DNA of 64,000 nucleotides from Thermodesulfobacteriota bacterium. Lineage in GTDB: Bacteria > Desulfobacterota > Desulfomonilia > UBA1062. Location: contig DAITOA010000001.1 of NCBI GenBank assembly GCA_036834365.1, forward strand, positions 88,926 through 152,925, written 5' to 3'. Shown one piece after another: positions 49,481 through 64,000 of the stretch. The notes below the pieces were generated by a model, which saw only the letters and a list, made by a program, of their open reading frames with translations, was not told the origin of the DNA and searched no databases. A program made the position numbers and the translations under genes. How positions within the stretch are numbered: the stretch's first letter is position 1; the number at the start of each line of letters is the position of its first letter.

Positions 49481-49693
49481 AATTCCCCCCTTCTAAAGTT
49501 CTTCAGATGTAGTGAAACATCTCGTGTTGTCCGGGAATATGCCTTGCAGCGGGATCGTGGAAACCATGCCGTCCCCGTTGATCCGTATGTCATGTCTGTA
49601 TACCATTTCCTTGCATTCAACAACTCATTTCTCCTGGAATCCGAGGAAGGTGAATCGTTGCGATGTATCGGGAAATTCACTATAGTGCTCACT

Positions 49694-50527
49694 ATGAACA
49701 ACGCCTTGAGCATCGATGTAGAGGAGTATTTCCAGATCCATGTGCTCTCCGGTATCATCCGTCAGGATCAGTGGAATCTCATGCCTTCGTTCGTGGAGGA
49801 CAATACCCTGAGGATCCTCGATCTTCTCGATAAGCACGGCATCAAGGCGACCTTTTTCTGCCTCGGGTGGATCGCGGAGCGTCATGGAGACCTCATCCGT
49901 CGGATGCATGAGAAGGGCCACGAGATCGCCTGCCACGGGTTCGCCCACCAGGTCATCTACGGGCAGGACCCTGCACGGTTCAAGGAAGACGTGACCAGGG
50001 CCAAGCAGGTCCTGGAAGACGCCACGGGCGTCCCGGTCATCGGCTACCGGGCACCCACCTACTCCATCACGGACAAGACCCTGTGGGCCATTAAGATCCT
50101 TGAGGATGCGGGATTCCTCTACGACTCGAGCATCTTTCCCATCTACCATGACAACTACGGCATCCCGGATGCCCCCCGGTTCCCCCACCGGCTCCAGGGG
50201 AGCACCCTGGTGGAGTTCCCCATCTCCACGCTCAAGATCGGACCCGTGAACATCCCCGTCTCAGGAGGGGGGTATTTCCGGCTGCTGCCCTACACACTCA
50301 CGAGGCTGGGGCTGAAGGAGGTCATGTCCGGCGGGAGGCCCTTCGTCTTCTACATCCATCCCTGGGAACTCAATCCCGATACCCCGCGGGTACCGGGCAT
50401 GCCAGTATTATCACGGTTCCGGACTTACATCGGCATCCGTTCCGCCAGGGCCAGGTTCGAGCGGCTCATCTCGGATTTCCGATTCGCCCCGATCCGGGAT
50501 GTCCTTGCTGAGCTCGGGCTCCTGTGA
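49694..50527 (+). CDS. Polysaccharide deacetylase family protein (DUF3473 type, resembling the PEP-CTERM/exosortase-locus subfamily)
   Basis: 'MNNALSIDVEEYFQ..' N-terminus and NodB-like 'HGIKATFFCLGWIAERHGDLIRRMHEKGHEIACHGFAHQ', with a DUF3473-like C-terminal region. Start chosen at the ATG at 49694. Confidence 0.6.
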   Translation: MNNALSIDVEEYFQIHVLSGIIRQDQWNLMPSFVEDNTLRILDLLDKHGIKATFFCLGWIAERHGDLIRRMHEKGHEIACHGFAHQVIYGQDPARFKEDVTRAKQVLEDATGVPVIGYRAPTYSITDKTLWAIKILEDAGFLYDSSIFPIYHDNYGIPDAPRFPHRLQGSTLVEFPISTLKIGPVNIPVSGGGYFRLLPYTLTRLGLKEVMSGGRPFVFYIHPWELNPDTPRVPGMPVLSRFRTYIGIRSARARFERLISDFRFAPIRDVLAELGLL

Positions 50528-52810: not shown

Positions 52811-53509
52811 TTACTTTTTCCCCCGCAATTCGTTCATGAGGTCCATCTGAACCTCCTGGATCTCCACGAGGCGCTGCCACTGGTGGGAGATGAGGTGATC
52901 GAGCTTCTGGTGCAGGTGGCGTATCTCCAGCTCGGCCTTCAGGTTCACCTGGTAATCGTGCATTGCACGGTCCCGGTCCCGTGCCTCCTGGCGATTCTGA
53001 CTCATCATGATGATGGGCGCCTGGATAGCGGCGAGGCATGAGAGGACCAGATTCAGGAGGATATAGGGGTACGGATCGAAGGGGCGAGCGGCAATGAGAA
53101 AAGAATTGACGGCCATCCAGCACACGATGACCAGAAAGAAGATGGTAATGAAGGTCCAGCTCCCACCGAAATCCGCGATCCGGTCCGCAAGGCGATCCCC
53201 GAGATTCAAGTGGGATTCAAAGTCAATGGTGGGATTTCTGGAAAGGATATCCTGCTCCTTCAGGCTTTCGAGCACCTCGCGCTCTATCTCCGTAATTTCC
53301 CCTTTCTCGGTTTCAAGGAGCTCTTCCACATACCTGTTGCGGTATCTTTCCAGGTCCCTGGTGCAGATCCATCCGTTCTCGTCCCAGGCGCCATGATCCC
53401 GCCTGATCAATTCTCCAAGAACGGGCCTGACTATGATACCGGGTCTCAGCTCTGCATGTGCCGTGGCGCCGCAGATCTGACAGACATGACTCTGTTCGGT
53501 TTTCTTCAC
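52811..53509 (-). CDS. DUF1003-family membrane protein with N-terminal Cys-rich segment
   Basis: 'FGGSWTFITIFFLVIVCWMAVN' matches the DUF1003 core; N-terminus 'CQICGATAHAE..WICTRD'. Terminal gene of the arn-containing operon. Confidence 0.5.
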   Translation of the reverse strand: MKKTEQSHVCQICGATAHAELRPGIIVRPVLGELIRRDHGAWDENGWICTRDLERYRNRYVEELLETEKGEITEIEREVLESLKEQDILSRNPTIDFESHLNLGDRLADRIADFGGSWTFITIFFLVIVCWMAVNSFLIAARPFDPYPYILLNLVLSCLAAIQAPIIMMSQNRQEARDRDRAMHDYQVNLKAELEIRHLHQKLDHLISHQWQRLVEIQEVQMDLMNELRGKK

Positions 53510-53573
53510 CTCATACCCCCTCGTTTGTTTTCCGCGTATACTCGCCTGCAGTCCCGCCGGTTCCCGGAATTGA

Positions 53574-54158
53574 TTATGAAGGATGAACGGATGTATTCCC
53601 CGTACGCCTCTTCATGATAATCGAATGCAGCACCCACACCACCATGCCGGTCATGATGATGAACCCTGCCAGGAGTGCCTCATACTTTTTGATGTGCTGG
53701 AGGACAAGTCCGGCCGCATGGCCGAAGACATAACCAAGACAGGCTATGACAAGGGCCCAGGCAAATCCGCCGACACAGTTGTATGCCATGAACTTCCACG
53801 GAGAAATGCCGCTTGCCCCGATGAGAAACGGGGTGACGGTGCGTATCCCGTAGATGAATCTGAAGAGGAGGATCACCGCCGTCTGGTTGCGCCGCATCAG
53901 GGAGAGGACACGCGTCGATTTGGCCTTCCAGGAGCGATGGGAATCGAGATAGGCGATCCCCTTTTTTCTTCCCATGAAGAAATAGAGCTGGTCTCCGGCA
54001 AAGGTGCCCAGGAATGCAGACAGGACGACGAAGGAGAACGAGAGGTAGCCCTGGTGAGAAAGGAACCCGGCCATCACCAGGACGGTCTCACCCTCGAAGA
54101 AGGTTCCCACGAGGATGATCGCATACCCGTAATGGATGATGAACGTCTCGATACCCAT
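53574..54158 (-). CDS. DedA-family membrane protein
   Basis: 'LVGTFFEGETVLVMAGFLSHQGYLS..FLGTFAGDQLYFFMGRKKG' is the DedA signature (E..G and G.R motifs). Confidence 0.85.
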   Translation of the reverse strand: MGIETFIIHYGYAIILVGTFFEGETVLVMAGFLSHQGYLSFSFVVLSAFLGTFAGDQLYFFMGRKKGIAYLDSHRSWKAKSTRVLSLMRRNQTAVILLFRFIYGIRTVTPFLIGASGISPWKFMAYNCVGGFAWALVIACLGYVFGHAAGLVLQHIKKYEALLAGFIIMTGMVVWVLHSIIMKRRTGNTSVHPS

Positions 54159-54234
54159 AATGATTCAGTGCATGATCCCGTCAAAACCGGCGCAGTATTC
54201 CGGGATGATACCATGAGGTACGCCCTGGATGAAC

Positions 54235-55824
54235 TCAAATCTCGTCATTGATGCGATAGATAAAGTACACCTTCCTCTCGGTCTTGATCGTCTCTTGCAA
54301 GTGCTGATTCCGGAAGCGGTCTTCGAGGTTTTTCTCCGACAGCAGGATGAAGGCGTCATCCCTGCCGGCCATGACGCTTAGCTGCTCTTCCTTCAGCGGT
54401 CTGACGGCCCTGCCTGAGGCCCAGACGATCTCGGGGGGGAGGTCTCCCAGGGAGTAGAAGGCCTTTTCCCTGTACTCCGGGACGGTTCTGAGGTGCATGA
54501 ACGGAGCCGCCTCATCCTGTCCGAGCCGTTCAGCGACCACCGGCGGGAGGAGGACGATGCCGAGGCAGATGCCAGCAACGGCGATCAGGAAGCTCCTCTC
54601 GGTGCGCTGTCTCCAATACAAGTAAATGAGCACCCCGCCGGTACACGCAAGGAGAACGGCCCCGGGCAGAGCAATCAGCCTGTTCCGGGAGAAGTGGACG
54701 AGCACCCCGGCACCGGCGATCAATGCCGTTCCGGTCACGATGGAGAAGGCCCCGTACACGATCTTCCTGACAGTCCCCGATGCCGCCTTGAGATACCCGA
54801 TCGATAGTGCCGAGACGACGGCACCCGGCACGACGGCAGGCAGGAGGTAACGGACCTTTTTCTCCGGGAAGACCGTTATGAAGATGATGGTGAGGATGAA
54901 CCAGAAGACGAAGAGCTTCTCCCCGGGCTTCCAGTCTTTTTTGATAAAGGGAGCCGCGAGGCCGTGGAAGAGAAAGAAGACCCAGACGCCCACGATCTCC
55001 TGGAGGTGGAGCAGGTAGTACCACAGGGGCTCGGTATGGTTCGTGAACCACCCCGTGGATTCCCTCGATGCCACCGCAGCCGCGGCGTGGGGGGTGTTCA
55101 GGTACACATACACCGGCCATGCAGCCGATATGACCGCACAGAAGAGAAAGGACCACAGGAGCCCCCACCGGGTATCACGCAGGTCCTTCAGGCCGAAGGC
55201 GATGATGTAGCTGATCAGGAAGGGCGCCAGCATGACCCAGAAGGGCACGGGTCCTTTGCTGTAGAAGGCGAAGGCCATAAGCACCGAAAACAGGACAAGG
55301 TAGAAAGGCCTGCCCCGCTTGCTCAGGAAGGTCTCGGCCAGCGCCCAGACCGCGCCGGTCATGAACGAGATGGAAAAGATGTCCCAGGCGTTCTTGCGGG
55401 CCGAGAGCATGAACAGGTAGCTCGTGGCGAGGACGAGCAGCGAGGTCAGGGCAATGTCCCTGTCTCCGGTGATCCGCCTCACAAGGAGGTAGGTGAAAAC
55501 AGCCAGAAGCAGAGCCGATATGCCCGACGGGATCCTGTTCACTGTGAGGTCGGCGTCGGTGCCCGCCCACTGCATGAACACGGCGGTGATCCACGTGGGC
55601 AGGGGCGGTTTGGCGATCCTGAGCTCACCGTTCATGGTGGGCAGCAGCCAGGATCCTCCCGCGGTCATTTCGCGCGCCGTAATGAAGTTCCTGGCCTCCA
55701 TGACGTTTACGGGAACGATGTTGCCGTAGAGGAAGATGGTGATGAAGAGGACGACAGCGACGAACAGTGCCCCTTTGTTTATCCGGGGACAGGGCGGTTT
55801 CAGAAGGATTCCCCTGTCGAACAT
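54235..55824 (-). CDS. arnT: ArnT-like undecaprenyl-phosphate-Ara4N transferase (GT83/GT39-type), copy 1
   Basis: 'FITAREMTAGGSWLLPTMNGELRIAKPPLPTWITAVFMQWAGT' aligns with the E. coli ArnT N-terminal region. About 13 TM helices. Start chosen at the ATG at 55824. Confidence 0.7.
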   Translation of the reverse strand: MFDRGILLKPPCPRINKGALFVAVVLFITIFLYGNIVPVNVMEARNFITAREMTAGGSWLLPTMNGELRIAKPPLPTWITAVFMQWAGTDADLTVNRIPSGISALLLAVFTYLLVRRITGDRDIALTSLLVLATSYLFMLSARKNAWDIFSISFMTGAVWALAETFLSKRGRPFYLVLFSVLMAFAFYSKGPVPFWVMLAPFLISYIIAFGLKDLRDTRWGLLWSFLFCAVISAAWPVYVYLNTPHAAAAVASRESTGWFTNHTEPLWYYLLHLQEIVGVWVFFLFHGLAAPFIKKDWKPGEKLFVFWFILTIIFITVFPEKKVRYLLPAVVPGAVVSALSIGYLKAASGTVRKIVYGAFSIVTGTALIAGAGVLVHFSRNRLIALPGAVLLACTGGVLIYLYWRQRTERSFLIAVAGICLGIVLLPPVVAERLGQDEAAPFMHLRTVPEYREKAFYSLGDLPPEIVWASGRAVRPLKEEQLSVMAGRDDAFILLSEKNLEDRFRNQHLQETIKTERKVYFIYRINDEI

Positions 55825-55825
55825 G

Positions 55826-56530
55826 TCACTCGGCTCCGGAGTTTCTGACAGTGGCGGGAAACCATTTTCCAAGCAGTTTCCTGGAAAAAACGGACATGAC
55901 CAGGAGTGCAGTGGCAAGGGCGATCTGCTGGAGGTTTCCCTTGACCCCGCCGCTGCCGAACGTGGCGAAGACAGCTGCCAGGGGGATGAACCCGAGGAGG
56001 GATCCGAGCATGAAATCCCGGAAGGACACCCTGCAGCTCCCGCAGAGCAGGCTCATGAGCGTCGAGTTGGAAAAGGGGAAGAGCCTCCCGTAGAGCACCC
56101 ACCAGAAGGCGTTCTCCTGGAATCGTGTCTGCCAGATCCTCAAGGTGCCGCCCACTCTCCGCTCCACCACCCCGGCAAGCATGGACTTCCCGGCGCCGTA
56201 GAGGATCGAGGCCCCCAGAAGAGATGCGAAGAGGGACAGGAGCGTGCCCATAGCCGCGCCGTAGATGATCCCGCCCACGGCGCTCGCCCAGAGGCGGGGA
56301 ATACCGGCAGCGATGAGCCCTCCCCAGATGAGGGTAAAGAGGAAGGCGGAGAACAGAAGGCCGGGGCCGCCATGGCCGCCCTTGAGGGTTTCCCGCATGC
56401 CCTGGATATCGAAGAGATATTCCCGGACCCCGGGACTTCCCAGGAGAACCGCCATGGCAGTGAAAAGGACCGCCAGGAAGACAACGCGGCCGATGTCCTT
56501 GGCCAGCTGCTTATTGATTGTCAGACCCAT
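55826..56530 (-). CDS. TVP38/TMEM64 (DedA-related) family membrane protein
   Basis: 234 aa and multi-pass. 'GIPRLWASAVGGIIYGAAMGTLLSLFASLLGASILYGAGK'. Confidence 0.5.
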   Translation of the reverse strand: MGLTINKQLAKDIGRVVFLAVLFTAMAVLLGSPGVREYLFDIQGMRETLKGGHGGPGLLFSAFLFTLIWGGLIAAGIPRLWASAVGGIIYGAAMGTLLSLFASLLGASILYGAGKSMLAGVVERRVGGTLRIWQTRFQENAFWWVLYGRLFPFSNSTLMSLLCGSCRVSFRDFMLGSLLGFIPLAAVFATFGSGGVKGNLQQIALATALLVMSVFSRKLLGKWFPATVRNSGAE

Positions 56531-57266
56531 TCTTCTCCGTCACCGTGTACCTCAGAGCCCTCTTCCTCAGCCAGAAGACACCTGCCAGGTCGGCAAGGCC
56601 CACCCAGAGCCTGCTGTTGATCCCGCCGCCGTACTTGCTCGTGCCGTGTTCCCGCACCCGGTGGTTCACCGGGGTCTCCGCCACGGTGAACCCGGCCATG
56701 ATGAACAGGGCCGGGAAGAACCGGTGGGCGTTCCTGAAGAACCGGATGCGCTCTAGGCATGTGCGGCGGAACACGCGCACCGAGCACCCCACGTCCGTGA
56801 TGTTGTCCTTGAGCACCGAGGAGCGTACCGTATTTGCGATCCTGCTGGACATGCGGCGTACAAAATTGTCGGCCCGTCTCCGCCTGATGCCGCACATCAT
56901 GTCCACGCCCCGCTTGTCCATCTCCTCGAACAGGTGGAGGATGTCACGGGGGTCGTTCTGTCCGTCGCCGTCCAGGGTGGCTATGTACTCGCCCTGTGCC
57001 GCACGGAACCCGGCCTCCAGGGCGGCGGACTGGCCGCTGTTGGGATGGAGATGTATGGCCCGGAAGTTATCATGTGTCCGTGCAAGACCGTCCATGATCG
57101 CGGATGTCCCGTCCGTGGATCCGTCGTCCACCATGACGAGTTCCCATGCAAGGCTCCCGTGGGAGGACAGGATCTCCAGTACTTCCTTGCAGACGGCCTC
57201 CAGGGACTCGGCCTCGTTGTAGAACGGGATGACGATGCTCAAGACCATGGGTTTCACTGTCATCAT
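56511..57266 (-). CDS. GT2 polyprenyl-phosphate sugar transferase (second ArnC/DPM1-like glycosyltransferase)
   Basis: 'MVLSIVIPFYNEAESLEAVCKEVLEIL..ELVMVDDGSTDGTS' and a DxD-type 'IATLDGDGQNDP'. About 250 aa with no C-terminal TM helices. Start at the ATG at 57266, with GGAGA upstream. Confidence 0.7.
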   Translation of the reverse strand: MMTVKPMVLSIVIPFYNEAESLEAVCKEVLEILSSHGSLAWELVMVDDGSTDGTSAIMDGLARTHDNFRAIHLHPNSGQSAALEAGFRAAQGEYIATLDGDGQNDPRDILHLFEEMDKRGVDMMCGIRRRRADNFVRRMSSRIANTVRSSVLKDNITDVGCSVRVFRRTCLERIRFFRNAHRFFPALFIMAGFTVAETPVNHRVREHGTSKYGGGINSRLWVGLADLAGVFWLRKRALRYTVTEKNGSDNQ

Positions 57267-57321
57267 AGTCTTCTCCATATATCCGATCGCCATGCATGAC
57301 AATACACCATATTCGTCAGGC

Positions 57322-58176
57322 TTAGACCGCACACTTGAAGGCGCGGCCCGGCAGCAGACCCATGGTGAGAGGCCGGACAGGGAGAGTGCCGCGGTCAAGG
57401 GACAGGGCGATTTCTTCCAGCGTACGGATCCGATAGCCCAGCCTTACGGCAAGGTTCAGGATCTGTTCGAACACCTCGCTGCACATCATGCCCTCGACCT
57501 CTGCATGAACGGGCAGGACCTGGGGAAAAGGGTCGGATGACCGCTGCTTCAGGGAGTCCATGACACCCTCCGCTCCCACCTCCTCGATGCAGGGCAGGTT
57601 GGAGGGGATTTCCAGCATGCCGTTCTCTAAAAAGATGAAAGGGGAACGCGCCCGGGTGCAGCTGAGATATGCCAGGTCGAAACGTGCGGCGATCGCGAGG
57701 GAGCGTTCATCCATCATCCAGCTGGGTGCGCCGAAGGCCTTGGGTTTCTTGCCTGTAACATGGATGTATGCAGCCACCATCTTTTGAAACCATGTCTCAA
57801 TGGACCGCCGGGTCATGAGAAAGAGCCAGTCCTGCCATAGACGGTGGTCCCAGGCATGGCAGGCGACCTCGTGACCTTTATGCAGGAGGTCCCTGATCGT
57901 GTCCGGGAAGGCAAGCCCGATCATGGGGGCCTTCAGGACCGTGCCGTACAGTGCGGTCTTCCACCCGTAGAGCCCCGGGGCATTGGTGCGGATCATCTTT
58001 TTTAAAAAGGCCGGACGGAGGAGCTGGAGTACGGCCAGTCCGGACCGGTCGGGGCCGAAGCTGATGAAAAAGCTCGCCCTCAGCCCGTGTTCGTCAAGGG
58101 TGCGGGTAATGAGGGGCACACCCTCCTTCATGCCTCTGAAGGTGTCCACGTCGACCTTGAGGATCAGATCAGGCAT
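57322..58176 (-). CDS. arnD: 4-deoxy-4-formamido-L-arabinose-phosphoundecaprenol deformylase
   Basis: 'LILKVDVDTFRGMKEGVPLITRTLDEHGLRASFFISFGPDRSGL..GHEVACHAWDHRLWQ' is closely similar to E. coli ArnD. ATG at 58176 overlaps the upstream stop. Confidence 0.85.
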   Translation of the reverse strand: MPDLILKVDVDTFRGMKEGVPLITRTLDEHGLRASFFISFGPDRSGLAVLQLLRPAFLKKMIRTNAPGLYGWKTALYGTVLKAPMIGLAFPDTIRDLLHKGHEVACHAWDHRLWQDWLFLMTRRSIETWFQKMVAAYIHVTGKKPKAFGAPSWMMDERSLAIAARFDLAYLSCTRARSPFIFLENGMLEIPSNLPCIEEVGAEGVMDSLKQRSSDPFPQVLPVHAEVEGMMCSEVFEQILNLAVRLGYRIRTLEEIALSLDRGTLPVRPLTMGLLPGRAFKCAV

Positions 58177-59200
58177 CGGTTGAGGCTGTCTCCTCCAGGA
58201 AGCTGTCCAGTGTCCGCTTGAGGGCGTCGTCAAGGGGCACCTTCGGAGCCCACCCAAGCATTTCCTGTGCGTTTTGAATGGAAGGGACCCGGGTCTGGAT
58301 GTCCTGGTACCCCTTACCGTAGAATTCGCCGGACGACTTGTACAGGATCTCCGAATACGATCCGTCTCCGCTGTGCATAGGATGCCGCCTGAACAGGTCC
58401 AGGAGTTTGTAGGCCAGGTCCTTGATGGTGATGTTGTTGGCGGGATTCCCGATGTTGAAGATCTGCTTGCTGGCACGGCCGCTCTCGTTGTGCAGGATCT
58501 TCATGAGAGCTTCCATGCCGTCGTCGATGTAGGTGAAGGACCTGCTCTGCATGCCTCCGTCCACCAGTGCGATGGGTGATCTGAATACCATGGATGCAAT
58601 GAACTGGGTGACCACGCGCGAAGAACCCTCCTTGGCCGTCTCCAGGGAATCGAGCCTCGGGCCGATCCAGTTGAATGGCCTGATCAGGGTGAAGTCGAGC
58701 TCGCCCCGCTCTCCGTAGGCCCAGATGACCCGGTCCAGAAGCTGCTTGGAGCACGAGTAGATCCAACGCTGCATGGGGATCGGACCCAGAATGAGGGGAG
58801 AAGTATATTCGTCGAAGCTCTCGTCCGTGCACATGCCGTAGACCTCCGAGGTGGAGGGGAAGATCACCCGCTTGCCGTACTTCACGCACTGCCTGATGAT
58901 CCGCAGGTTCTCCTCGAAGTCCAGCTCGAAGACGCTCAGGGGCCGCTCCACATAGGTCTTGGGGGTGGCAATGGCGACCAGGGGCAGGACCACGTCGCAT
59001 TTCTTGATGTGATACTCGATCCATTCCTTGTTGATGGCGATATCGCCTTCTATGTAGTGGAACCGCGGGTCGCCCATGACGCCCTTGAGCTTCTGGTCGC
59101 CCAGGTCCATACCGTAGACGTGCCAGTCCGAGTCTCTCATGATCCGTTCGCTCAGGTGCGAACCGATGAAACCGTTCACGCCCAGGATGAGCACATTCAT
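58169..59200 (-). CDS. arnA: UDP-glucuronate oxidative decarboxylase domain of ArnA, encoded as a separate gene
   Basis: 'MNVLILGVNGFIGSHLSERIMRDSDWHVYGMD..KCDVVLPLVAIATP..FELDFEENLRIIRQCVKYGKRVIFPSTSEVYGMC' is collinear with the E. coli ArnA C-terminal domain. Confidence 0.88.
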   Translation of the reverse strand: MNVLILGVNGFIGSHLSERIMRDSDWHVYGMDLGDQKLKGVMGDPRFHYIEGDIAINKEWIEYHIKKCDVVLPLVAIATPKTYVERPLSVFELDFEENLRIIRQCVKYGKRVIFPSTSEVYGMCTDESFDEYTSPLILGPIPMQRWIYSCSKQLLDRVIWAYGERGELDFTLIRPFNWIGPRLDSLETAKEGSSRVVTQFIASMVFRSPIALVDGGMQSRSFTYIDDGMEALMKILHNESGRASKQIFNIGNPANNITIKDLAYKLLDLFRRHPMHSGDGSYSEILYKSSGEFYGKGYQDIQTRVPSIQNAQEMLGWAPKVPLDDALKRTLDSFLEETASTDA

Positions 59201-60111
59201 TGCAGGTTCTCCTTTTCGTGTTCCTTGAAATATGAACAGAGTCCAGTGCCGGTGAATACACGTCCGTTTATCTCGATCTCCAAGGGTCTCAGAGTGCCTT
59301 CCCCGGTCCCGATGAACACGTCATTACCCTTGATCACGATGCTGCCGGGTTTCAGTGAGGATCCTGAGGCCGGGACGGCCCGCCAGATAAAGACCATGTC
59401 ATCCCCGATGAATCCGAAGGCCCCGGGATACGGCCGGGTGACGGCCCGGATGAGGTTGTAGATCTCCTCGGCGGGCCTGTCCCATGAGATCCGTCCGTCT
59501 TCGGGCTTTCTGCCGCCGAAGTACGACCCCTTGGAGAGGTCCTGCGGTTCTTTGGGGATGTCGCCGCTGATCATGCGGGGGAGGATCTCCGCGAGCATGG
59601 CATCCGCAGCCCGTTCCAGCTTTCCGAAGAGCGTGAGAGCGGTATCCTCATGGGTGATCTCCACCCGCTTCTGGGCCGTAACAGGACCGGCATCGGGCTT
59701 TTCCACCATCTCGTGGAGCGTCACGCCGGTGGCCTTTTCCCCTTTGAGGATGACCCAGTTCACCGGGCACCGGCCGCGGTAGGAGGGCAGCAGTGAGCCA
59801 TGGAGATTGTAGGCGCCTTGCTTCGGAATGGAAAGAATCGCGGGCTTGAGCATGAAGCGGTAATAGAAGCTGAAGATGAAATCGGGCTGAGCGCCTTTGA
59901 CCTTCTCGACCCACCCATGCCGGTTGGGGTTTTCCGGACACACGCACGGGATGTCGAGCTCACGGCAGAGCGACGGCACGGATGCGAACCATACGTTCTC
60001 GTCAGGGTCGTCCTCGTGGGAGAACACGAGCGGTATCTCCATGCCGGCATCGAGAAGCCTCCTGATGCCGATGACACCCATGTTGTGGTACGCGAAGACC
60101 ACCGCCCTCAC
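59197..60111 (-). CDS. arnA: UDP-Ara4N formyltransferase domain of ArnA, encoded as a separate gene
   Basis: 'VRAVVFAYHNMGVIGIRRLLDAG..DFIFSFYYRFML..YNLHGSLLPSYRGRCPVNWVILKGEKATGVTLHEMVEKPDAG' is collinear with the E. coli ArnA N-terminal domain. GTG start overlaps the upstream stop; its own stop overlaps the ATG of the decarboxylase gene. Confidence 0.85.
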   Translation of the reverse strand: MRAVVFAYHNMGVIGIRRLLDAGMEIPLVFSHEDDPDENVWFASVPSLCRELDIPCVCPENPNRHGWVEKVKGAQPDFIFSFYYRFMLKPAILSIPKQGAYNLHGSLLPSYRGRCPVNWVILKGEKATGVTLHEMVEKPDAGPVTAQKRVEITHEDTALTLFGKLERAADAMLAEILPRMISGDIPKEPQDLSKGSYFGGRKPEDGRISWDRPAEEIYNLIRAVTRPYPGAFGFIGDDMVFIWRAVPASGSSLKPGSIVIKGNDVFIGTGEGTLRPLEIEINGRVFTGTGLCSYFKEHEKENLQ

Positions 60112-61037
60112 GGGTAGATCCTCCTGATGGTGTACGGCGGACGCTTCTTCACCTCGCGGTAGATCCTGCCCACGTACTCCCCCATGACCCCGAAGGCCAG
60201 GAACTGGGCCCCGATGAAGAAGAACAGCACGGCGAACAGGGTAAAGATGCCCTGTGCCGCCCATTCGGCGCCGAAGGCCAGCCGCGCCACGGCCAGGAAG
60301 GCGCCGAAGCCTATGCCGAGAAAGGCAAGTACGAAGCCGGCATAGAGCATGAACTTCAGCGGAAATTCGGAAAAGGACGTAATGAGGTCGAAATGCAGGG
60401 AGATGAGACTGCCAAGGGAGTACTTGGACTCACCGGCATAACGCTCCTCGTGGCCTACGTCGATCTCGGCGATGTCCTTGGCGAAGCTCACCGCCAGGGC
60501 CGGGATGAAGGTGGAGTGCTCGTGGCTCGAAAGCATGTATTCGACCACGTGCCTCCGGTAGGCCCTGAGCATGCATCCCCAGTCATTGAGGTGTACACCC
60601 GTGATGCGGCGGGTCATGGCATTGACCAGGCGGCTGGCCGACTTGCGGAAGAACGAGTCCTGGCGCATCCTGCGAACCGTTCCCACCACCTCATAGGCGC
60701 CCGTCTCCATGACGTCCACCAGGCGGGGGATCTCTTCGGGCGGGTTCTGAAGGTCAGCATCGAGCGTGACTACGATATCCCCGGTGCTTGTTTCGAAGCC
60801 TGCGAACACGGCTGCATGCTGGCCGTAGTTCCGGGAGAGCTCCACCACCTTCACCCGCCCGGAGGCATGGCTGCGCAGGATCTCCAGCGACCCGTCGCGG
60901 CTGCCGTCATCCACGAGGATCACCTCGTAATCCCTTTGCAGGCCTTCCATGACCGGCAGCAGACGTTCGAAGAGCCTTCCGATAACCTGATCCTCATTGT
61001 ATACCGGGATCACCACCGATACCTTTGCCTGGTTCAT
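60108..61037 (-). CDS. arnC: Undecaprenyl-phosphate 4-deoxy-4-formamido-L-arabinose transferase
   Basis: 'VSVVIPVYNEDQVIGRLFERL..YEVILVDDGS..LDADLQNPPEEIPRLV..WGCMLRAYRRHVVEYML..GESKYS' is near-collinear with E. coli ArnC, including two C-terminal TM helices. Confidence 0.9.
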   Translation of the reverse strand: MNQAKVSVVIPVYNEDQVIGRLFERLLPVMEGLQRDYEVILVDDGSRDGSLEILRSHASGRVKVVELSRNYGQHAAVFAGFETSTGDIVVTLDADLQNPPEEIPRLVDVMETGAYEVVGTVRRMRQDSFFRKSASRLVNAMTRRITGVHLNDWGCMLRAYRRHVVEYMLSSHEHSTFIPALAVSFAKDIAEIDVGHEERYAGESKYSLGSLISLHFDLITSFSEFPLKFMLYAGFVLAFLGIGFGAFLAVARLAFGAEWAAQGIFTLFAVLFFFIGAQFLAFGVMGEYVGRIYREVKKRPPYTIRRIYP

Positions 61038-61039
61038 GT

Positions 61040-61966
61040 CTATAGGGCCTCCTGCGTCCTCGTATAGAGCGATTTTCTGTTGAGGATTAAAAAAATGCTT
61101 CCTATGGCCACCGACAGCCACAGGGTGAACACGCGGGCCATGATGGCGGCCATCCCCGCATCCGGGGCCGGCATACCGGCATGGATGAGCAGTCCCAGAA
61201 GGCTCGCATCGGTCACCACGAGCCCGCCCGGGATGAAGGAAACCGCCCCGACCAGGGTGGAAAACCCGAAGATGACCGTGGCATCGATGATCCCGATTTC
61301 GTGACCAAGCCCCCGGGCTATGAGGTGAAGGGCGACGCCCTCGCTCGTCCAGGCTGCCAGGGTGATGACGAGGGAGATGACAAGCACCTTCGGCCCGAAA
61401 AGGGCGAACATGTCATCGAGGGCCCCTTTGAGCTCATGCGCCCGGGCGGCCAGGAACGGGGAGCGGGAAGCAAGATCAAGGAGACGCTCGGGAATCGGCC
61501 TTGCCAGCATGAGCATGGGCAGGCAGCACAGGAGCAGGGTCCAGCCGGAGCCTCCCAGAACGCTCACCCCCAGCAGGGAGATGACGCTCAGACCCACGAG
61601 GTCCATGAGGAGCTCGGCGATCACGACGGGGGAACCGGCGATGAGGGTCCTGCCTGTTGCCGTCTTGAGGAACTGCGCCTTGAGGAGAAAACCCGCCTTG
61701 CCCGGTGTGGCGCTCATGGACAGCCCTGTCAGGAATATCCCGAGGCTCCTGGCGATCTTCACCTGGAAGCCTGTTTTTTTCAGGTACAGGTCCCACCGGA
61801 AGAACTTGATCAGGTCGTTGCAGAACCCGAACACGGCTATGGCTGGTACCAGGGTGAGGGGGAAGGCCTTCAGGGTGGGCAGGGCCTTTCTCACATCGCC
61901 CAGCATGACGATTGCCGAGTAGGTTATGAAGGCGAGGATAAGGCCGAAGACTATGCCCTTTTTCAC
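61040..61966 (-). CDS. UPF0104 / lysylphosphatidylglycerol-synthase TM-region-like membrane protein (putative flippase-like)
   Basis: 308 aa and polytopic. 'SLGIFLTGLSMSATPGKAGFLLKAQFLKTATG'. Sits where arnE/arnF would be expected. Confidence 0.5.
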   Translation of the reverse strand: MKKGIVFGLILAFITYSAIVMLGDVRKALPTLKAFPLTLVPAIAVFGFCNDLIKFFRWDLYLKKTGFQVKIARSLGIFLTGLSMSATPGKAGFLLKAQFLKTATGRTLIAGSPVVIAELLMDLVGLSVISLLGVSVLGGSGWTLLLCCLPMLMLARPIPERLLDLASRSPFLAARAHELKGALDDMFALFGPKVLVISLVITLAAWTSEGVALHLIARGLGHEIGIIDATVIFGFSTLVGAVSFIPGGLVVTDASLLGLLIHAGMPAPDAGMAAIMARVFTLWLSVAIGSIFLILNRKSLYTRTQEAL

Positions 61967-63084
61967 CCACAGATCTCCCTCAGGGCAAGGATCACCCTGT
62001 CTATCTGCGAGTCTTCCATGGATGGGTAGAGTGGTATGCTCAGGATGCTCTCCGCAGCCGCTTCGGTTTCCGGGAGACTCACCGTGCCGAGATGTTCCCT
62101 GACGTAGCTCAGGGCATGGCATGCAGGGAAGTGCAGGCCATACCCGATGTTACGTTCCGCAAGCTCCTGCATGAGGGCGGCCCGGCCTATTGACCGCGCC
62201 TTGACCACGAAGAGGTGCCATGAATGCACATGTGCATAGGTGGGGATGCCCGGCAGGTCCAGGCCCTTGAGGTTGGACAGACCATCGAGGTAGCGTTTCG
62301 CGATCCGGGTCCTCTTTGCATTTATCTCCCCGATCTTGGCGAGCTGAACGATGCCCAGGGCGGCCTGCATGTCCGTGAGGTTGTACTTGAAGCCAGGCTC
62401 CGCTATGTCGTAGCTCGGGTCCGATGCCTTGCCGTAGCGTTTCCATGCGTCGCGTTCGATGCCGTGGAACTTCATGAGCTTCAGCTTCTTCATGAGATCT
62501 TCGGGACCGCCGGTGATCATCCCCCCCTCCCCTGTGGTGATGTTCTTGATGGGGTGAAAGGAGTAGATCGCCGGGTTCCTGGCGCCGATATGGGCGCCCT
62601 TGTAGAAGGTCCCCACGGCATGGGCCGCATCTTCGATGAGGGGTATCCCCCTGCAGGCATCCTCGATGGCGTCCAGATCCGCCGGGGCGCCGGCGAAGTG
62701 CACGGGGATGACCGCTTTCGTGTTTTTCGTGACGAGCCGCGCAATCTCATCAGGACGCACGAGCAGGGTGTCGTAGTCGATATCGGCAAAGACAGGGCGT
62801 GCCCCGGCGATCATGATCTGGTTCGCTGTGGAGGCAAAGGTCATGGACGGAGTGATCACCTCATCGCCGGGACCGATGTGAAGGGCCCTGAGCAGCAGGT
62901 GAAGCCCCGCGGTGCCGGAGGCAAGTGCCAGGGCGTGGGGCGATCCCACATAGGCGGCGAAGCGCTGTTCGAACTCGGCGCACTTCGGGCCGGTGGTTAT
63001 CCATCCGGACTTCAGGACCTCAGCGACGGCATCGATCTCCTCGCTGCCGATGTAAGGCCTGCTCATGGGTATGAAGTCATTCAT
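61963..63084 (-). CDS. arnB: UDP-4-amino-4-deoxy-L-arabinose--oxoglutarate aminotransferase
   Basis: DegT/DnrJ/EryC1 fold, collinear with E. coli ArnB: 'SRPYIGSEEIDAVAEVLKSGWITTGPKCAEFEQRF..GDEVITPSMTF..VIPVHFAGAPADLDAI..AIYSFHPIKNIT..KYNLTDMQAALG'. Confidence 0.88.
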   Translation of the reverse strand: MNDFIPMSRPYIGSEEIDAVAEVLKSGWITTGPKCAEFEQRFAAYVGSPHALALASGTAGLHLLLRALHIGPGDEVITPSMTFASTANQIMIAGARPVFADIDYDTLLVRPDEIARLVTKNTKAVIPVHFAGAPADLDAIEDACRGIPLIEDAAHAVGTFYKGAHIGARNPAIYSFHPIKNITTGEGGMITGGPEDLMKKLKLMKFHGIERDAWKRYGKASDPSYDIAEPGFKYNLTDMQAALGIVQLAKIGEINAKRTRIAKRYLDGLSNLKGLDLPGIPTYAHVHSWHLFVVKARSIGRAALMQELAERNIGYGLHFPACHALSYVREHLGTVSLPETEAAAESILSIPLYPSMEDSQIDRVILALREICG

Positions 63085-64000
63085 TCGTTCTTGTCTCCCT
63101 GTGGTTCGGACGTGTCCTTGATGTTCCAGAGTTCGGTGGGCCGCTTATCATAGCCTGTAGTCCGTATCAGCCTGAACCCTCTGGACTGGAGAAGTTTCTG
63201 CACGTCCGAGCCGTCCCTGCCGTTGAAATACAGGACATATGGTGTACTCCCCGCATTGACCATCCCCTCGAACCGCTTCCAGTCCGGAATGGATTCCGCC
63301 CTGAATCCCCCGTAAAAGGAGCTGAAGGCCAGGGCCGTCTCGCTCAGGTTGTACCCCATGACCCGCTCGTTTCCCACAATGGTGCCTGCATACCGGAAAA
63401 AGGGGCGATAACTTTTGATGACATCCACCTGGTGGAAAAGAACCGGGGACCAGGTAAGCAGCAGCAGAGCCCAACAGGCAGCCAGTCTTTGGGGCAGGGT
63501 GAACATGCGCGACCCGAGCATGGTTCCCAGGAAGAGCGCCGACAGGAGAGATGCCAGCAGTGTCATCTGCCATGACCCGCCGAGCTTCGCATGAAAAGCG
63601 ATGGGGACCATGATGAATACGAGGCCGGTGAATGCCCCGGGCAACCAGGTGGCCCACCGCCGTTCTACCGGCCGTACATCCTCGGGCATGCGTGACAGCC
63701 ATACCCCCACGACGGCGGCCATGGCCGGGTACAGGGGAAGGATGTAGAGCCCGCGTTTCGTGGAGGCGATGCTCAGGAGTATGAATCCGCCGAAGAACCA
63801 GCTGTAAAAGAACCGGAGGCGTGTATCGGGCCTCCTCAGGAAGACGGTCGCCGGGATCAGCAGGAGCGACCAGGGCAGCCCCTCGGTGAAGATGACCTGC
63901 AGATAATAGTAAAGGGGACGCACGTGGCCGCCCTGGTAAACGCCCACGTCCATGAACCTGCCCAGGTTGTTGAACAGGAAGAAGGTGAAAAGGAAATCCG
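63081..64000 (-). CDS. ArnT-like (GT83/GT39) polytopic glycosyltransferase, copy 2; 5' end beyond window
   Basis: Frame is open to position 64000 ('DFLFTFFLFNNLGRFMDVGVYQGG..'). Hydrophobic C-terminal half has the typical GT39/GT83 architecture. First gene of the arn operon as seen in this window. Confidence 0.65.
   Translation of the reverse strand, partial: DFLFTFFLFNNLGRFMDVGVYQGGHVRPLYYYLQVIFTEGLPWSLLLIPATVFLRRPDTRLRFFYSWFFGGFILLSIASTKRGLYILPLYPAMAAVVGVWLSRMPEDVRPVERRWATWLPGAFTGLVFIMVPIAFHAKLGGSWQMTLLASLLSALFLGTMLGSRMFTLPQRLAACWALLLLTWSPVLFHQVDVIKSYRPFFRYAGTIVGNERVMGYNLSETALAFSSFYGGFRAESIPDWKRFEGMVNAGSTPYVLYFNGRDGSDVQKLLQSRGFRLIRTTGYDKRPTELWNIKDTSEPQGDKNE

What the first reader, a model, noticed from the sequence alone, without database searches (positions are those of the whole stretch)
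53574..56530. DedA and TVP38 membrane proteins embedded in the arn operon (with UPF0104 at 61040-61966) in place of ArnE/ArnF
DedA-family proteins have been reported as required for colistin resistance and Ara4N modification in Burkholderia, and have recently been implicated as undecaprenyl-phosphate recyclers or flippases. Here a DedA gene (53574-54158), a TVP38/TMEM64 DedA-superfamily gene (55826-56530) and a UPF0104 (LPG-synthase TM-like) gene (61040-61966) are all co-operonic with arnBCADT. The canonical ArnE/ArnF flippase is missing. This genomic context independently supports a lipid-linked sugar or undecaprenyl-phosphate translocation role for these families. These could be experimentally tractable candidates for the undecaprenyl-phosphate-Ara4N flippase.
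Basis: partly seen in the sequence, partly recalled or inferred. Interest (0 to 1): 0.55.

Follow-up and report, generated by a model that had tools for sequence, protein, structure and literature searches.

The report
Aminoarabinose operon with replacement lipid flippases
A lipid A aminoarabinose (polymyxin-resistance type) gene cluster from an uncultured anaerobe lacks the usual ArnE/ArnF flippase and carries three other lipid-transporter-like membrane genes, giving testable candidates for how lipid-linked sugars cross the membrane.

Summary
On the minus strand, 52811-64000, twelve tightly packed genes include arnT-like, arnB, arnC, split arnA and arnD, plus UPF0104 (61040-61966), TVP38 (55826-56530) and DedA (53574-54158). 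No ArnE/ArnF-like gene lies in the window or in 10 kb beyond it.

Comparative genomics gives the three genes different standing.
- **UPF0104** has a predicted MprF-flippase fold. It sits directly beside arnC in all 22 related loci, including Desulfurella, Scalindua and Omnitrophota. It is the best candidate undecaprenyl-phosphate-Ara4N flippase.
- **TVP38** belongs to the COG0398 branch of the DedA superfamily. It is coupled to a transmembrane-less GT2 in 35 of 37 loci, usually with a GT-C enzyme and usually far from arn. This looks like a separate three-component glycosylation module that joined arn here. Some arn operons (L093) have TVP38 but no UPF0104.
- **DedA** is the COG0586 type and carries the arginine pair of undecaprenyl-phosphate recyclers. 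Its orthologues elsewhere are not arn-linked.

All transport roles are inferred, none is shown. This is a new variant of known three-component systems.

The parts
63081..64000 (-). GT-C glycosyltransferase #1 (PMT/PMT_2, ArnT-like). Only the C-terminal 306 codons are in the window; the full gene is 532 aa. First gene of the operon.
   Evidence: The reading frame is open to the window end. The full gene carries PF02366/PF13231 on identical contigs. It is the second-best match to E. coli ArnT, E 1.5e-26.
61963..63084 (-). ArnB-like UDP-4-amino-4-deoxy-L-arabinose aminotransferase
   Evidence: PF01041 E 6e-116. Top NCBIfam hit is PRK11658, 472 bits, below the cutoff of 631. Overlaps both neighbours by 4 nt.
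61040..61966 (-). UPF0104 / MprF-flippase-domain-like membrane protein, 308 aa, stand-alone. Proposed undecaprenyl-phosphate-Ara4N flippase.
   Evidence: PF03706 117.5 bits, full length, and TIGR00374 above its cutoff. AF2 model pLDDT 79.8; the top six PDB matches are all MprF structures. Adjacent to arnC in 22 of 22 related loci.
60108..61037 (-). ArnC-like undecaprenyl-phosphate Ara4FN transferase (GT2 with two C-terminal TM helices)
   Evidence: 52% identical to E. coli ArnC and has 2 TM segments. PRK10714 399 bits, below the cutoff of 529.
59197..60111 (-). ArnA N-terminal-type formyltransferase, encoded as a separate gene
   Evidence: PRK06988 382 bits, above the cutoff of 316. PF00551 and PF02911 also match.
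58169..59200 (-). ArnA C-terminal-type UDP-glucuronate decarboxylase, encoded as a separate gene
   Evidence: PRK11908 550 bits, above the cutoff of 294. PF01370 also matches.
57322..58176 (-). ArnD-like deformylase
   Evidence: PRK15394 E 1.8e-51, below cutoff. PF01522 matches. 34% identical to E. coli ArnD over 96% of its length.
56511..57293 (-). Short GT2 with no TM helices (260 aa), related to polyprenyl-phosphate glycosyltransferases. First gene of module 2.
   Evidence: PF00535 E 2.4e-34. Best NCBIfam hits are ArnC, PgfS and PpgS, all below cutoff. No TM segment; 32-33% identical to the ArnC catalytic domain. Lies directly upstream of the TVP38 orthologue in 35 of 37 loci.
55826..56530 (-). 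TVP38/YdjX-type (COG0398) DedA-superfamily protein, 234 aa. Overlaps the GT2 stop by 20 nt. Proposed flippase or membrane partner of module 2.
   Evidence: PF09335 E 1.7e-16. Its first re-entrant loop has an invariant Pro-Arg and no acidic residue; its second has a single Arg. The GT2 coupling is conserved. It is present in arn operons that lack UPF0104.
54235..55824 (-). GT-C glycosyltransferase #2 (PMT_2, 529 aa), the periplasmic transferase of module 2. Not an ArnT orthologue.
   Evidence: PF13231 E 4e-14. Only E 2.6e-4 against E. coli ArnT. A GT-C lies within 3.5 kb of the TVP38 orthologue in 18 of 29 loci.
53574..54158 (-). DedA protein of the COG0586 type, 194 aa. Proposed undecaprenyl-phosphate recycler.
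   Evidence: PF09335 E 2.7e-16. Weak hits to DedA/UptA NCBIfam models, far below cutoff. R100 and R106 align with YghB R130 and R136, and E24 with D51. A 76-nt gap lies upstream with no terminator. Orthologues elsewhere are not arn-linked.
52811..53509 (-). DUF1003 membrane protein. Same strand, 64 nt after DedA. Its membership in the system is doubtful.
   Evidence: PF06210 E 7e-43. It shows no similarity to the gene that follows the DedA orthologue in L016.

Best explanation
The cluster is a composite envelope-glycosylation operon built from two undecaprenyl-phosphate (UndP) dependent modules and a carrier recycler.

**Module 1 is the Ara4N pathway.** ArnA (two genes) and ArnB make UDP-Ara4FN. 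ArnC loads it on UndP and ArnD deformylates it. The UPF0104 protein, a stand-alone homologue of the MprF flippase domain, carries the zwitterionic UndP-Ara4N to the periplasmic leaflet in place of ArnE/ArnF. An ArnT-like GT-C then transfers Ara4N to lipid A.

**Module 2 is a separate three-component system.** A transmembrane-less GT2 charges UndP with a second, unidentified sugar. The translationally coupled TVP38/COG0398 protein holds the GT2 at the membrane and/or flips the UndP-sugar. GT-C#2 transfers the sugar to a periplasmic acceptor.

**The COG0586 DedA** returns free UndP to the cytoplasmic leaflet, closing both cycles.

Shown here: the gene content, the family and fold assignments, the absence of ArnE/F from the locus, and the conserved gene linkages. 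Inferred: every transport activity, the sugar and acceptor of module 2, and co-transcription of DedA.
For: **UPF0104**
- The gene sits beside arnC, usually between arnB and arnC with overlapping stop and start codons, in 22 of 22 loci found with a family profile. These include Desulfurella acetivorans A63, Scalindua, Omnitrophota and many Desulfomonilia/Syntrophia-type MAGs at 38-62% identity.
- None of these loci has an EamA/SMR-like small gene, while the E. coli ArnE/F controls are detected.
- In Desulfurella the operon is ArnT-UPF0104-ArnC-ArnA-ArnA-ArnD, flanked by PagL and LptF/G.
- The AF2 model matches only MprF structures at E <= 0.001, with probability 1.00.
- ArnC keeps its own two TM helices, so UPF0104 is not needed as an anchor.
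- Family precedent: MprF flips Lys-/Ala-PG. GpgF and HexF are the predicted flippases of deacetylated aminosugar lipids in GT + deacetylase + UPF0104 operons (PMC12713373). All of COG0392 was predicted to be flippases with GT2/GT-C neighbours in archaea (PMC5898192).
- Distant UPF0104 relatives pair with TM-less GT2 genes, or with GtrA and DprE-like genes.

**TVP38**
- The GT2 lies immediately upstream in 35 of 37 loci, with spacing from a 20-nt overlap to a 27-nt gap except one apparently degraded locus (L084). A GT-C is nearby in 18 of 29 loci. Only 2 of 29 are arn-linked.
- In one contig, L044, TVP38 and a GT-C form a single in-frame ORF.
- Arn operons L093/L094 have GT2-TVP38 and no UPF0104, DedA or EamA gene in 16 kb.

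**DedA**
- The arginine pair and one acidic residue of UndP flippases are present (PMC10127716).
- A dedA gene in a glycosylation operon 'completing the cycle' is published for B. subtilis.
- A DedA-PAP2 fusion lies inside another arn cluster, L028.

The flippase slot of three-component systems is already known to be filled by unrelated families: GtrA, SMR and MATE (PMC11127046).
Against: - No transport activity is demonstrated for any of the three proteins, nor for their close homologues.
- The rest of the genome could not be searched, so an arnE/F pair elsewhere is not excluded.
- The loci were retrieved using UPF0104 or TVP38 as bait. Arn operons of this clade with neither gene could not have been seen.
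- Many of the 22 loci are related MAGs, and whole-operon transfer could inflate the apparent independence of the linkages.
- Arn operons without UPF0104 (L044, L084, L093) show it is dispensable in some lineages.
- COG0398 proteins were argued to be phospholipid scramblases rather than UndP transporters (PMC10127716).
- The DedA-arn linkage is not conserved. This genome is rich in VTT genes, three in 64 kb, so the adjacency could be fortuitous.
- The YghB E39 position falls in a deletion in this DedA.
- ArnB, ArnC and ArnD score below NCBIfam equivalog cutoffs, so the sugar could be a relative of Ara4N.
Confidence: 0.55

Rival explanations
1. One reading: the DedA and/or TVP38 proteins are themselves the undecaprenyl-phosphate-Ara4N flippase that replaces ArnE/ArnF, with UPF0104 as just one more candidate.
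For: Arn operons L093/L094, L044 and L084 lack UPF0104 but carry GT2-TVP38 right after arnD. In L093, TVP38 and a downstream MFS are the only transporter-like genes in 16 kb. DedA mutants of Burkholderia, Klebsiella and Pseudomonas lose Ara4N-lipid A (abstracts).
Against: TVP38 orthologues are overwhelmingly found with their GT2 and far from arn: 27 of 29 loci are not arn-linked, as are L013-L015. On one 710-kb contig the UPF0104 gene and the TVP38 module both occur; the TVP38 locus there (L049) has no arn genes nearby. DedA orthologues at 72% and 51% identity sit in housekeeping contexts. In P. aeruginosa, deleting either arnEF or dedA abolishes resistance, so DedA does not substitute for ArnEF. 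The DedA phenotype is explained by UndP recycling.
Confidence: 0.12
2. ArnE/ArnF-type or other flippases are encoded elsewhere in the genome. The three membrane proteins do something else: UPF0104 and TVP38 redistribute ordinary or modified phospholipids as part of a co-regulated envelope-remodelling response, and DedA has a general membrane-homeostasis role.
For: MprF of P. aeruginosa is reported as a promiscuous lipid scramblase (reference list of PMC12713373). E. coli YbhN/PplT is linked to cardiolipin and PG enzymes. COG0398 proteins were proposed to be phospholipid scramblases. The rest of the genome was not searchable.
Against: The position of UPF0104 beside arnC, with overlapping codons, is kept across phyla at 38-62% identity. 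This is hard to explain without a role in the same pathway. No phospholipid-modifying enzyme is in the clusters. The TVP38-GT2 start/stop overlap is conserved in 35 of 37 loci. In E. coli the flippase genes lie inside the arn operon, and P. aeruginosa numbers them contiguously with arnT (PA3556-PA3558).
Confidence: 0.15
3. TVP38, and the UPF0104 relatives that pair with TM-less GT2 enzymes, are not flippases. They are membrane anchors or activators that recruit the soluble GT2 and present UndP to it, as DPM3 does for DPM1. Flipping is spontaneous or done by the GT-C enzyme.
For: The partner GT2 proteins have no TM helix in the window, L011, L013, L091 and L092. The genes are translationally coupled. 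Flippase activity is also unproven for GtrA, SMR and MATE components.
Against: In the arn module, ArnC has its own two TM helices yet UPF0104 is still conserved next to it. Both families descend from demonstrated lipid translocators: MprF, and the DedA/TMEM41B/VMP1 group. The TVP38-GT-C fusion in L044 links TVP38 to the periplasmic step as well. Anchor and flippase roles are not exclusive.
Confidence: 0.15

Closest known systems
E. coli/Salmonella/Pseudomonas arnBCADTEF (pmrHFIJKLM) lipid A Ara4N operon
   Same: It has homologues of ArnB, ArnC (52% identical), ArnA, ArnD and ArnT-like GT-C enzymes in one tightly packed operon. A PmrAB-like two-component system lies nearby.
   Different: There are no arnE/arnF genes. 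ArnA is split into two genes. A UPF0104 gene is inserted between arnB and arnC. There are several GT-C paralogues. A second GT2-TVP38-GT-C module and a dedA gene are appended.
MprF flippase domain and stand-alone UPF0104 flippase candidates (GpgF of P. aeruginosa gpgSDF, HexF of C. difficile hexSDF, archaeal AglD C-terminal domain / COG0392)
   Same: It has the same Pfam family and predicted fold. It shares the same operon logic of glycosyltransferase + de-N-acylase + UPF0104 producing an amine-bearing lipid head group.
   Different: The substrate would be a polyprenyl-phosphate sugar rather than a glycerolipid. There is no aminoacyl-PG synthase domain. It scores far below the GpgF and MprF equivalog cutoffs. 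Flippase activity of GpgF and HexF is itself unproven.
Three-component periplasmic glycosylation systems (GtrA/GtrB/Gtr*; CsbB/GtcA/YfhO; C. youngae ORF15/ORF14-MATE/GT136; mycobacterial PpgS/Rv3632/Rv3779)
   Same: A polyprenyl-phosphate GT2 and a GT-C transferase are encoded together with a small or medium polytopic membrane protein in the flippase slot.
   Different: The slot is occupied by a TVP38/COG0398 DedA-superfamily protein (module 2) or by UPF0104 (module 1), not by a GtrA, SMR or MATE protein. The GT2 of module 2 lacks TM helices.
DedA-family UndP flippases (B. subtilis UptA/YngC, E. coli YghB/YqjA, B. thailandensis DbcA, K. pneumoniae DkcA, P. aeruginosa PA4029/DpcA)
   Same: It is of the COG0586 type, with the conserved arginine pair and an acidic residue in the first re-entrant loop. 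The published link is to Ara4N modification through carrier recycling, with occasional co-location with glycosylation operons.
   Different: It has a shortened first re-entrant loop that lacks the YghB E39 position. Identity to YghB is low (24%), and it scores far below the UptA equivalog cutoffs. In the pathogens studied, dedA is not described as part of the arn operon (the E. coli arn operon has none).

Membership tests
UPF0104 / MprF flippase-domain family (PF03706, COG0392) | Full-length match to the LPG_synthase_TM / 'flippase-like domain' profiles | tested here: met
   PF03706 117.5 bits against a cutoff of 33.4, covering residues 10-289 of 308. TIGR00374 57.5 bits against 43.2.
UPF0104 / MprF flippase-domain family (PF03706, COG0392) | Fold of the MprF transmembrane flippase domain | tested here: met
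   AF2 model pLDDT 79.8, pTM 0.80. The six PDB matches with E <= 0.001 are all MprF (9j8s, 7duw, 7f47, 9goe, 9j8q, 6lvf), with probability 1.00 and TM-score 0.57-0.64 on the query. A sequence-only PDB search found nothing.
Bifunctional MprF | C-terminal aminoacyl-phosphatidylglycerol synthase domain | tested here: not met
   The protein is 308 aa with no further domain. bifunc_MprF scores 28.9 bits against a cutoff of 600.
GpgF (glucosaminyl-PG flippase) equivalog | Score above the NCBIfam NF053789 cutoff | tested here: not met
   33.5 bits against a cutoff of 320.
UPF0104 / MprF flippase-domain family | Lipid translocation activity | not testable with these tools
   Needs a flipping assay, for example membrane-impermeant amine labelling of UndP-Ara4N.
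DedA superfamily, COG0586 UndP-flippase branch (UptA/YghB type) | VTT/DedA domain | tested here: met
   PF09335 60.6 bits against a cutoff of 33.9.
DedA superfamily, COG0586 UndP-flippase branch (UptA/YghB type) | [quoted passage not shown] | tested here: met
   R100 and R106 align with them in A4. The criterion is from PMC10127716.
DedA superfamily, COG0586 UndP-flippase branch (UptA/YghB type) | Two acidic residues in the first re-entrant helix (YghB E39, D51) | tested here: inconclusive
   E24 aligns with D51. E39 falls in a 10-residue deletion, though E22 lies two residues before E24.
DedA superfamily, COG0586 UndP-flippase branch (UptA/YghB type) | Equivalog-level score to UptA or E. coli DedA models | tested here: not met
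   UptA NF052604 scores 36.9 bits against 250. PRK10847 scores 47.2 against 236. It belongs to the family but is not an equivalog of a characterised member.
DedA superfamily, COG0398 branch (TVP38/YdjX/YdjZ type) | VTT domain, no acidic residues in the first re-entrant helix, and one or both arginines missing in the second | tested here: met
   PF09335 61.2 bits. The first re-entrant loop reads G-I-P-R-L-W with no acid. The second has R149 only. Homologues are labelled YdjX/TVP38 by JGI. No solved structure exists for comparison.
ArnE/ArnF (EamA/SMR-like heterodimeric UndP-Ara4N flippase) | Pair of ~110-130 aa four-TM EamA-like proteins encoded in the arn operon | tested here: not met
   None is present in the 64-kb window, in 10 kb beyond it, in the 22 UPF0104-arn loci or in L093. 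The E. coli controls are detected, with ArnF only weakly at E 0.0096. The rest of the genome was not searched.
Ara4N (arn) pathway | Homologues of ArnA (both activities), ArnB, ArnC, ArnD and ArnT encoded together | tested here: met
   Both ArnA halves score above equivalog cutoffs. ArnB, ArnC and ArnD have the arn model as top hit but fall below cutoff. ArnT-like GT-Cs are present, and the best E. coli ArnT match lies just outside the window.
Ara4N (arn) pathway | Ara4N actually attached to lipid A | not testable with these tools
   Needs lipid A mass spectrometry, for example in Desulfurella acetivorans A63.
Three-component (Gtr-type) periplasmic glycosylation system | Polyprenyl-phosphate GT2 plus GT-C transferase encoded together | tested here: met
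   The short GT2's best hits are ArnC, PgfS and PpgS. The adjacent GT-C is PMT_2. The linkage is conserved.
Three-component (Gtr-type) periplasmic glycosylation system | GtrA-family (PF04138) flippase component | tested here: not met
   There is no PF04138 gene in the cluster. TVP38 occupies the position.

The most novel reading that the evidence does not exclude
TVP38/COG0398-type DedA proteins are the bacterial branch closest to eukaryotic TMEM41B, VMP1 and TVP38. In this reading they are flippases (scramblases) for polyprenyl-phosphate monosaccharides and work with a DPM1-like TM-less GT2 and a PMT-like GT-C. They would be interchangeable with MprF-like UPF0104 proteins in arn operons. This would give the COG0398 branch its first function. 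It would also point to DedA-superfamily proteins as candidates for the still unidentified dolichol-phosphate-mannose/glucose flippases of the eukaryotic ER.
Probability: 0.3. Interest if true: 0.85.

Novelty: new variant of a known kind. Interest (0 to 1): 0.6.

Why it matters
Flippases for polyprenyl-phosphate-linked single sugars are among the least understood steps of envelope and protein glycosylation. ArnE/F, GtrA, Rv3789 and the MATE protein of Citrobacter are all assigned mostly by context. The ER flippases for dolichol-phosphate-mannose and -glucose are, to my knowledge, still unidentified.

This cluster and its relatives give two further, unrelated families sitting in that slot, with strong conserved linkage.
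- UPF0104 would extend the MprF-type flippase from aminoacylated or aminoglycosylated glycerolipids to UndP-Ara4N. That would explain how lineages outside the well-studied Proteobacteria can make Ara4N-lipid A without ArnE/F.
- TVP38/COG0398 would gain its first concrete biochemical context, and in strict anaerobes, contrary to the proposed link with aerobic metabolism.

A cultured organism with a complete genome, Desulfurella acetivorans A63, carries the minimal ArnT-UPF0104-ArnC-ArnA-ArnA-ArnD operon. An E. coli arnEF mutant offers a simple complementation test.

Tried and rejected
- **PDB sequence searches.** Profiles of both families found nothing. Only the fold search placed UPF0104 with MprF. 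The TVP38 model has no PDB counterpart, so fold membership rests on Pfam alone.
- **Terminator or promoter separating DedA from the operon.** No terminator-like site lies in the 76-nt gap. Site counts were no higher than in shuffled sequence.
- **A conserved DedA-DUF1003 pair.** The gene after the 72%-identical DedA orthologue is unrelated to DUF1003.
- **ArnE/F-like genes.** I used hydrophobicity scans plus Pfam. All small multi-TM ORFs near the arn genes turned out to be ends of larger genes (GT-C C-termini, LptF/G, MFS and others) or had no EamA/SMR match. The 148-aa protein in L093 has no Pfam match and a hydrophilic C-terminal third.
- **Literature.** Seven searches found no paper linking UPF0104 or COG0398 to arn or to UndP-sugars. 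The library does not hold most subscription journals.
- **GT-C#2 as the ArnT of the operon.** Rejected. It is the weakest E. coli ArnT match of the four GT-C paralogues.
- **Not done.** I did not use the representative-protein HMMER job because it gives no genomic context. I could not search whole genomes for arnE/F.

Full report
**1. What is in the sequence**

On the minus strand from about 64000 down to 52811 lies an unbroken run of twelve genes. Pfam and NCBIfam scans identify them. Independent gene calls on identical metagenome and MAG contigs fix their boundaries.

| Window coordinates | Gene |
|---|---|
| 63081 to beyond the window end | GT-C glycosyltransferase, PMT/PMT_2 (532 aa in full) |
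| 61963-63084 | ArnB |
| 61040-61966 | UPF0104 / LPG_synthase_TM protein (308 aa) |
| 60108-61037 | ArnC |
| 59197-60111 | ArnA-type formyltransferase |
| 58169-59200 | ArnA-type decarboxylase |
| 57322-58176 | ArnD |
| 56511-57293 | Short GT2 (260 aa) |
| 55826-56530 | TVP38-type VTT-domain protein |
| 54235-55824 | Second GT-C, PMT_2 |
| 53574-54158 | DedA-type VTT-domain protein |
| 52811-53509 | DUF1003 |

- From the first GT-C to the second, the junctions range from a 20-nt overlap to a 28-nt gap.
- DedA follows after 76 nt with no terminator-like hairpin.

**2. Is ArnE/ArnF missing?**

- A scan of all six frames found only DedA among ORFs of 70-220 aa with at least three hydrophobic segments. 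A looser scan added only pieces of larger genes.
- The 10 kb beyond the window end was read from identical contigs. It holds a divergently transcribed GT-C with an Arnt_C domain, a metallophosphoesterase, an OmpR-type regulator with its kinase, and a fourth GT-C. It has no small EamA-like gene.
- The method finds E. coli ArnE and ArnF taken from the K-12 arn operon. ArnF reaches Pfam EamA only at E 0.0096. The hydrophobicity scan is therefore the more sensitive half of the test.
- I could not search the rest of the genome.

**3. UPF0104 is a conserved part of this kind of arn operon**

- Homologues at 51-66% identity form a compact family, followed by a drop to about 30%.
- A profile of that family (A1) retrieved 22 loci from species-representative genomes.
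- In all 22, the gene lies directly beside arnC. Wherever enough sequence is held, the order is (ArnT)-ArnB-UPF0104-ArnC-ArnA-ArnA-ArnD.
- The loci include Desulfomonilia and Syntrophaceae MAGs, an Omnitrophota MAG, Candidatus Scalindua, and the cultured Desulfurella acetivorans A63.
- In Desulfurella the operon is ArnT(PMT_2+Arnt_C)-UPF0104-ArnC-ArnA-ArnA-ArnD, between a PagL lipid A deacylase and LptF/G.
- None of the small hydrophobic ORFs in these loci matches EamA or SMR.
- An AlphaFold2 model (pLDDT 79.8) matches only MprF structures at E <= 0.001 in the PDB.
- ArnC here keeps its two C-terminal membrane helices and is 52% identical to E. coli ArnC. UPF0104 is therefore not needed to hold ArnC at the membrane.

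Known or proposed substrates of this family are lipids with a phosphate or glycosyl head group carrying a free amine. Examples are Lys- and Ala-PG (MprF), glucosaminyl-PG (GpgF) and an aminohexosyl glycolipid (HexF). The last two come from operons of the form glycosyltransferase + deacetylase + UPF0104 (PMC12713373). UndP-Ara4N, made by ArnC and then the de-N-formylase ArnD, fits that pattern; this is my inference. Makarova and colleagues had already predicted that all COG0392 proteins are flippases and noted archaeal neighbourhoods with GT2 and PMT/STT3-like enzymes (PMC5898192).

More distant relatives that I looked up pair with TM-less GT2 genes of about 244 aa (L011, L091, L092), or sit with GtrA and DprE1/2-like genes (L012, L092). 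These are again polyprenyl-phosphate-sugar contexts.

**4. TVP38 belongs to a different, portable module**

- Orthologues at 42-90% identity are numerous.
- In two large contigs the gene sits in a small group of GT-C, short GT2 and TVP38, with no arn genes.
- A profile scan of metagenome contigs gave 48 loci.
  - The short GT2 lies directly upstream in 35 of the 37 loci with enough sequence. Spacing runs from a 20-nt overlap to a 27-nt gap, apart from one apparently degraded locus (L084).
  - The two exceptions are the most distant homologues.
  - A GT-C is within 3.5 kb in 18 of 29 loci.
  - Arn genes are present in only 2 of 29.
- The GT2 has no membrane helix and is 32-33% identical to the ArnC catalytic domain. 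Its best named relatives are ArnC, PgfS and PpgS.
- GT-C#2 is the poorest E. coli ArnT match of the four paralogues.
- Genes 57293-54235 are therefore a second three-component glycosylation system, with TVP38 where GtrA would be.
- By the criteria of Todor et al. (PMC10127716), TVP38 is of the COG0398 type. It has no acidic residue in the first re-entrant loop and only one arginine in the second. This subfamily has an invariant Pro-Arg in the first loop instead.
- Todor et al. considered COG0398 unlikely to move UndP and linked it to aerobic metabolism. Here it is in strict-anaerobe lineages, bound to a glycosylation pair.

Three further observations:
- **L028.** The arn cluster has both UPF0104 and GT2-TVP38, in a different order from the window.
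- **L044.** One ORF of 735 aa joins TVP38 to a GT-C.
- **L093/L094.** A 16-kb contig shows TCS-ArnT-ArnB-ArnC-ArnA-ArnA-ArnD-GT2-TVP38-GT-C-GT-C-MFS. It has no UPF0104, no COG0586 DedA and no EamA gene.

L093/L094 keeps alive the reading that TVP38 can also serve the Ara4N branch. It suggests that the two membrane proteins are functionally interchangeable.

**5. DedA**

- It aligns with E. coli YghB such that R100 and R106 match the essential R130 and R136, and E24 matches D51.
- The E39 position lies in a 10-residue deletion, with E22 close by.
- It is thus of the COG0586 type, the branch that holds all experimentally supported UndP flippases.
- Its linkage to arn is not conserved. Orthologues at 72% and 51% identity lie next to unrelated housekeeping genes.
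- The window holds a third VTT gene at 14741-15463 in an unrelated context. Such genes are common in this genome.
- On the other hand, a DedA-PAP2 fusion lies inside the arn cluster of L028.
- Roney and Rudner described B. subtilis uptA as the fifth gene 'completing the cycle' of a glycosylation regulon. They explained the Ara4N defect of dedA mutants by poor UndP recycling.
- In P. aeruginosa, deletion of arnEF and deletion of dedA (dpcA) each reduce the colistin MIC to 0.5 ug/mL. The two are therefore not redundant.
- I conclude that this DedA most likely recycles UndP, and that its co-location is opportunistic rather than defining.

**6. Mechanism proposed**

- Module 1 makes UndP-Ara4N. 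UPF0104 flips it, and an ArnT-like GT-C puts Ara4N on lipid A.
- Module 2 makes a second UndP-sugar with the TM-less GT2. TVP38 anchors the enzyme and/or flips the product. GT-C#2 transfers the sugar to an unknown periplasmic acceptor.
- DedA returns UndP to the cytoplasmic leaflet.
- The stand-alone modules carry no sugar-nucleotide genes, so the second sugar probably comes from a common nucleotide sugar. This is inference.
- All transport steps are inferred from family ancestry and conserved linkage.

**7. Caveats**

- The loci were found using the candidate genes as bait. Arn operons of these lineages with neither gene would not have been seen.
- Many loci are MAGs of related organisms.
- ArnB, ArnC and ArnD score below NCBIfam equivalog thresholds.
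- L084 looks degraded.
- The TVP38-GT-C fusion is a single metagenome contig.

**8. Comparison with what is known, and novelty**

Replacement of the flippase component by unrelated families is an established theme in three-component systems: GtrA, SMR-like ArnE/F and Rv3789, and a MATE protein in Citrobacter (PMC11127046). UPF0104 proteins were already predicted to be flippases in glycosylation. DedA proteins in glycosylation operons are published.

I did not find the following in the searchable literature:
- the specific, phylogenetically broad insertion of UPF0104 into arn operons that lack arnE/F;
- the tight GT2-TVP38-GT-C module.

I therefore class the finding as a new variant of a known kind, of moderate-to-good interest. 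Its main value is that it offers experimentally simple candidates for polyprenyl-phosphate-sugar flippases.

Noticed in passing
window 14741-15463 (+): A third VTT/DedA-superfamily gene (240 aa, PF09335 E 5.8e-18). It is 29% identical to the TVP38 gene over 110 aa, with Gln in place of the second-loop Arg. It lies between an ADP-forming acyl-CoA synthetase and a lipoate-ligase-like gene. That makes three VTT genes in 64 kb.
   Followed up: partly
L007:6539-8182 (-) and L007:766-4329, just beyond the window end: A divergently transcribed GT-C with an Arnt_C domain is the best match to E. coli ArnT (E 7e-44, 93% coverage). An OmpR-type regulator, its histidine kinase and a fourth PMT_2 GT-C follow. 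That makes four GT-C paralogues within about 20 kb.
   Followed up: partly
window 58169-60111 (-): ArnA is encoded as two separate overlapping genes, a formyltransferase and a decarboxylase. Both score above the cutoffs of the stand-alone models PRK06988 and PRK11908. The same split is seen in all related loci.
   Followed up: partly
L044:6001-8208: A single 735-aa ORF joins a TVP38 domain (residues 1-231, 74% identical to the window's) to a GT-C domain (residues 283-597). This is either a possible gene fusion or an assembly error in one metagenome contig.
   Followed up: partly
L028:5341-6780: A DedA (VTT) + PAP2 phosphatase fusion protein (479 aa) lies between arnD and a GT-C inside another arn cluster. 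That cluster also has UPF0104 and GT2-TVP38 in a rearranged order.
   Followed up: partly
L093:2522-13517 (also L094, L044, L084): Arn operons carry GT2-TVP38 after arnD but have no UPF0104 between arnB and arnC. In L093 nothing EamA-like lies in 16 kb. An MFS transporter and a 148-aa hydrophobic protein with no Pfam match lie downstream.
   Followed up: partly
L011:9279-10990, L091:8001-9769, L092:3229-4955: Distant UPF0104 relatives (25-31% identical) are translationally coupled to TM-less GT2 genes of about 244 aa. This mirrors the GT2-TVP38 pair. L012 and L092 also have GtrA and DprE1/2-like genes next to a UPF0104 gene.
   Followed up: partly
L036:7441-15613 (Desulfurella acetivorans A63, CP007051.1): The minimal arn operon with UPF0104 is flanked by a PagL lipid A 3-O-deacylase gene and an LptF/LptG permease gene, in a cultured organism with a complete genome.
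   Followed up: partly
window 49592-50527 (+): A polysaccharide deacetylase with a DUF3473 domain lies on the opposite strand, about 2 kb downstream of the cluster's last gene (DUF1003).
   Followed up: no
window 32403-34540 (-): An LptF/LptG permease pair. It confirms that the organism makes LPS and exports it to an outer membrane.
   Followed up: no
window 52811-53509 (-): A DUF1003 membrane protein with an N-terminal Cys-rich region follows DedA on the same strand. Its function is unknown, and it is not conserved next to DedA orthologues.
   Followed up: partly
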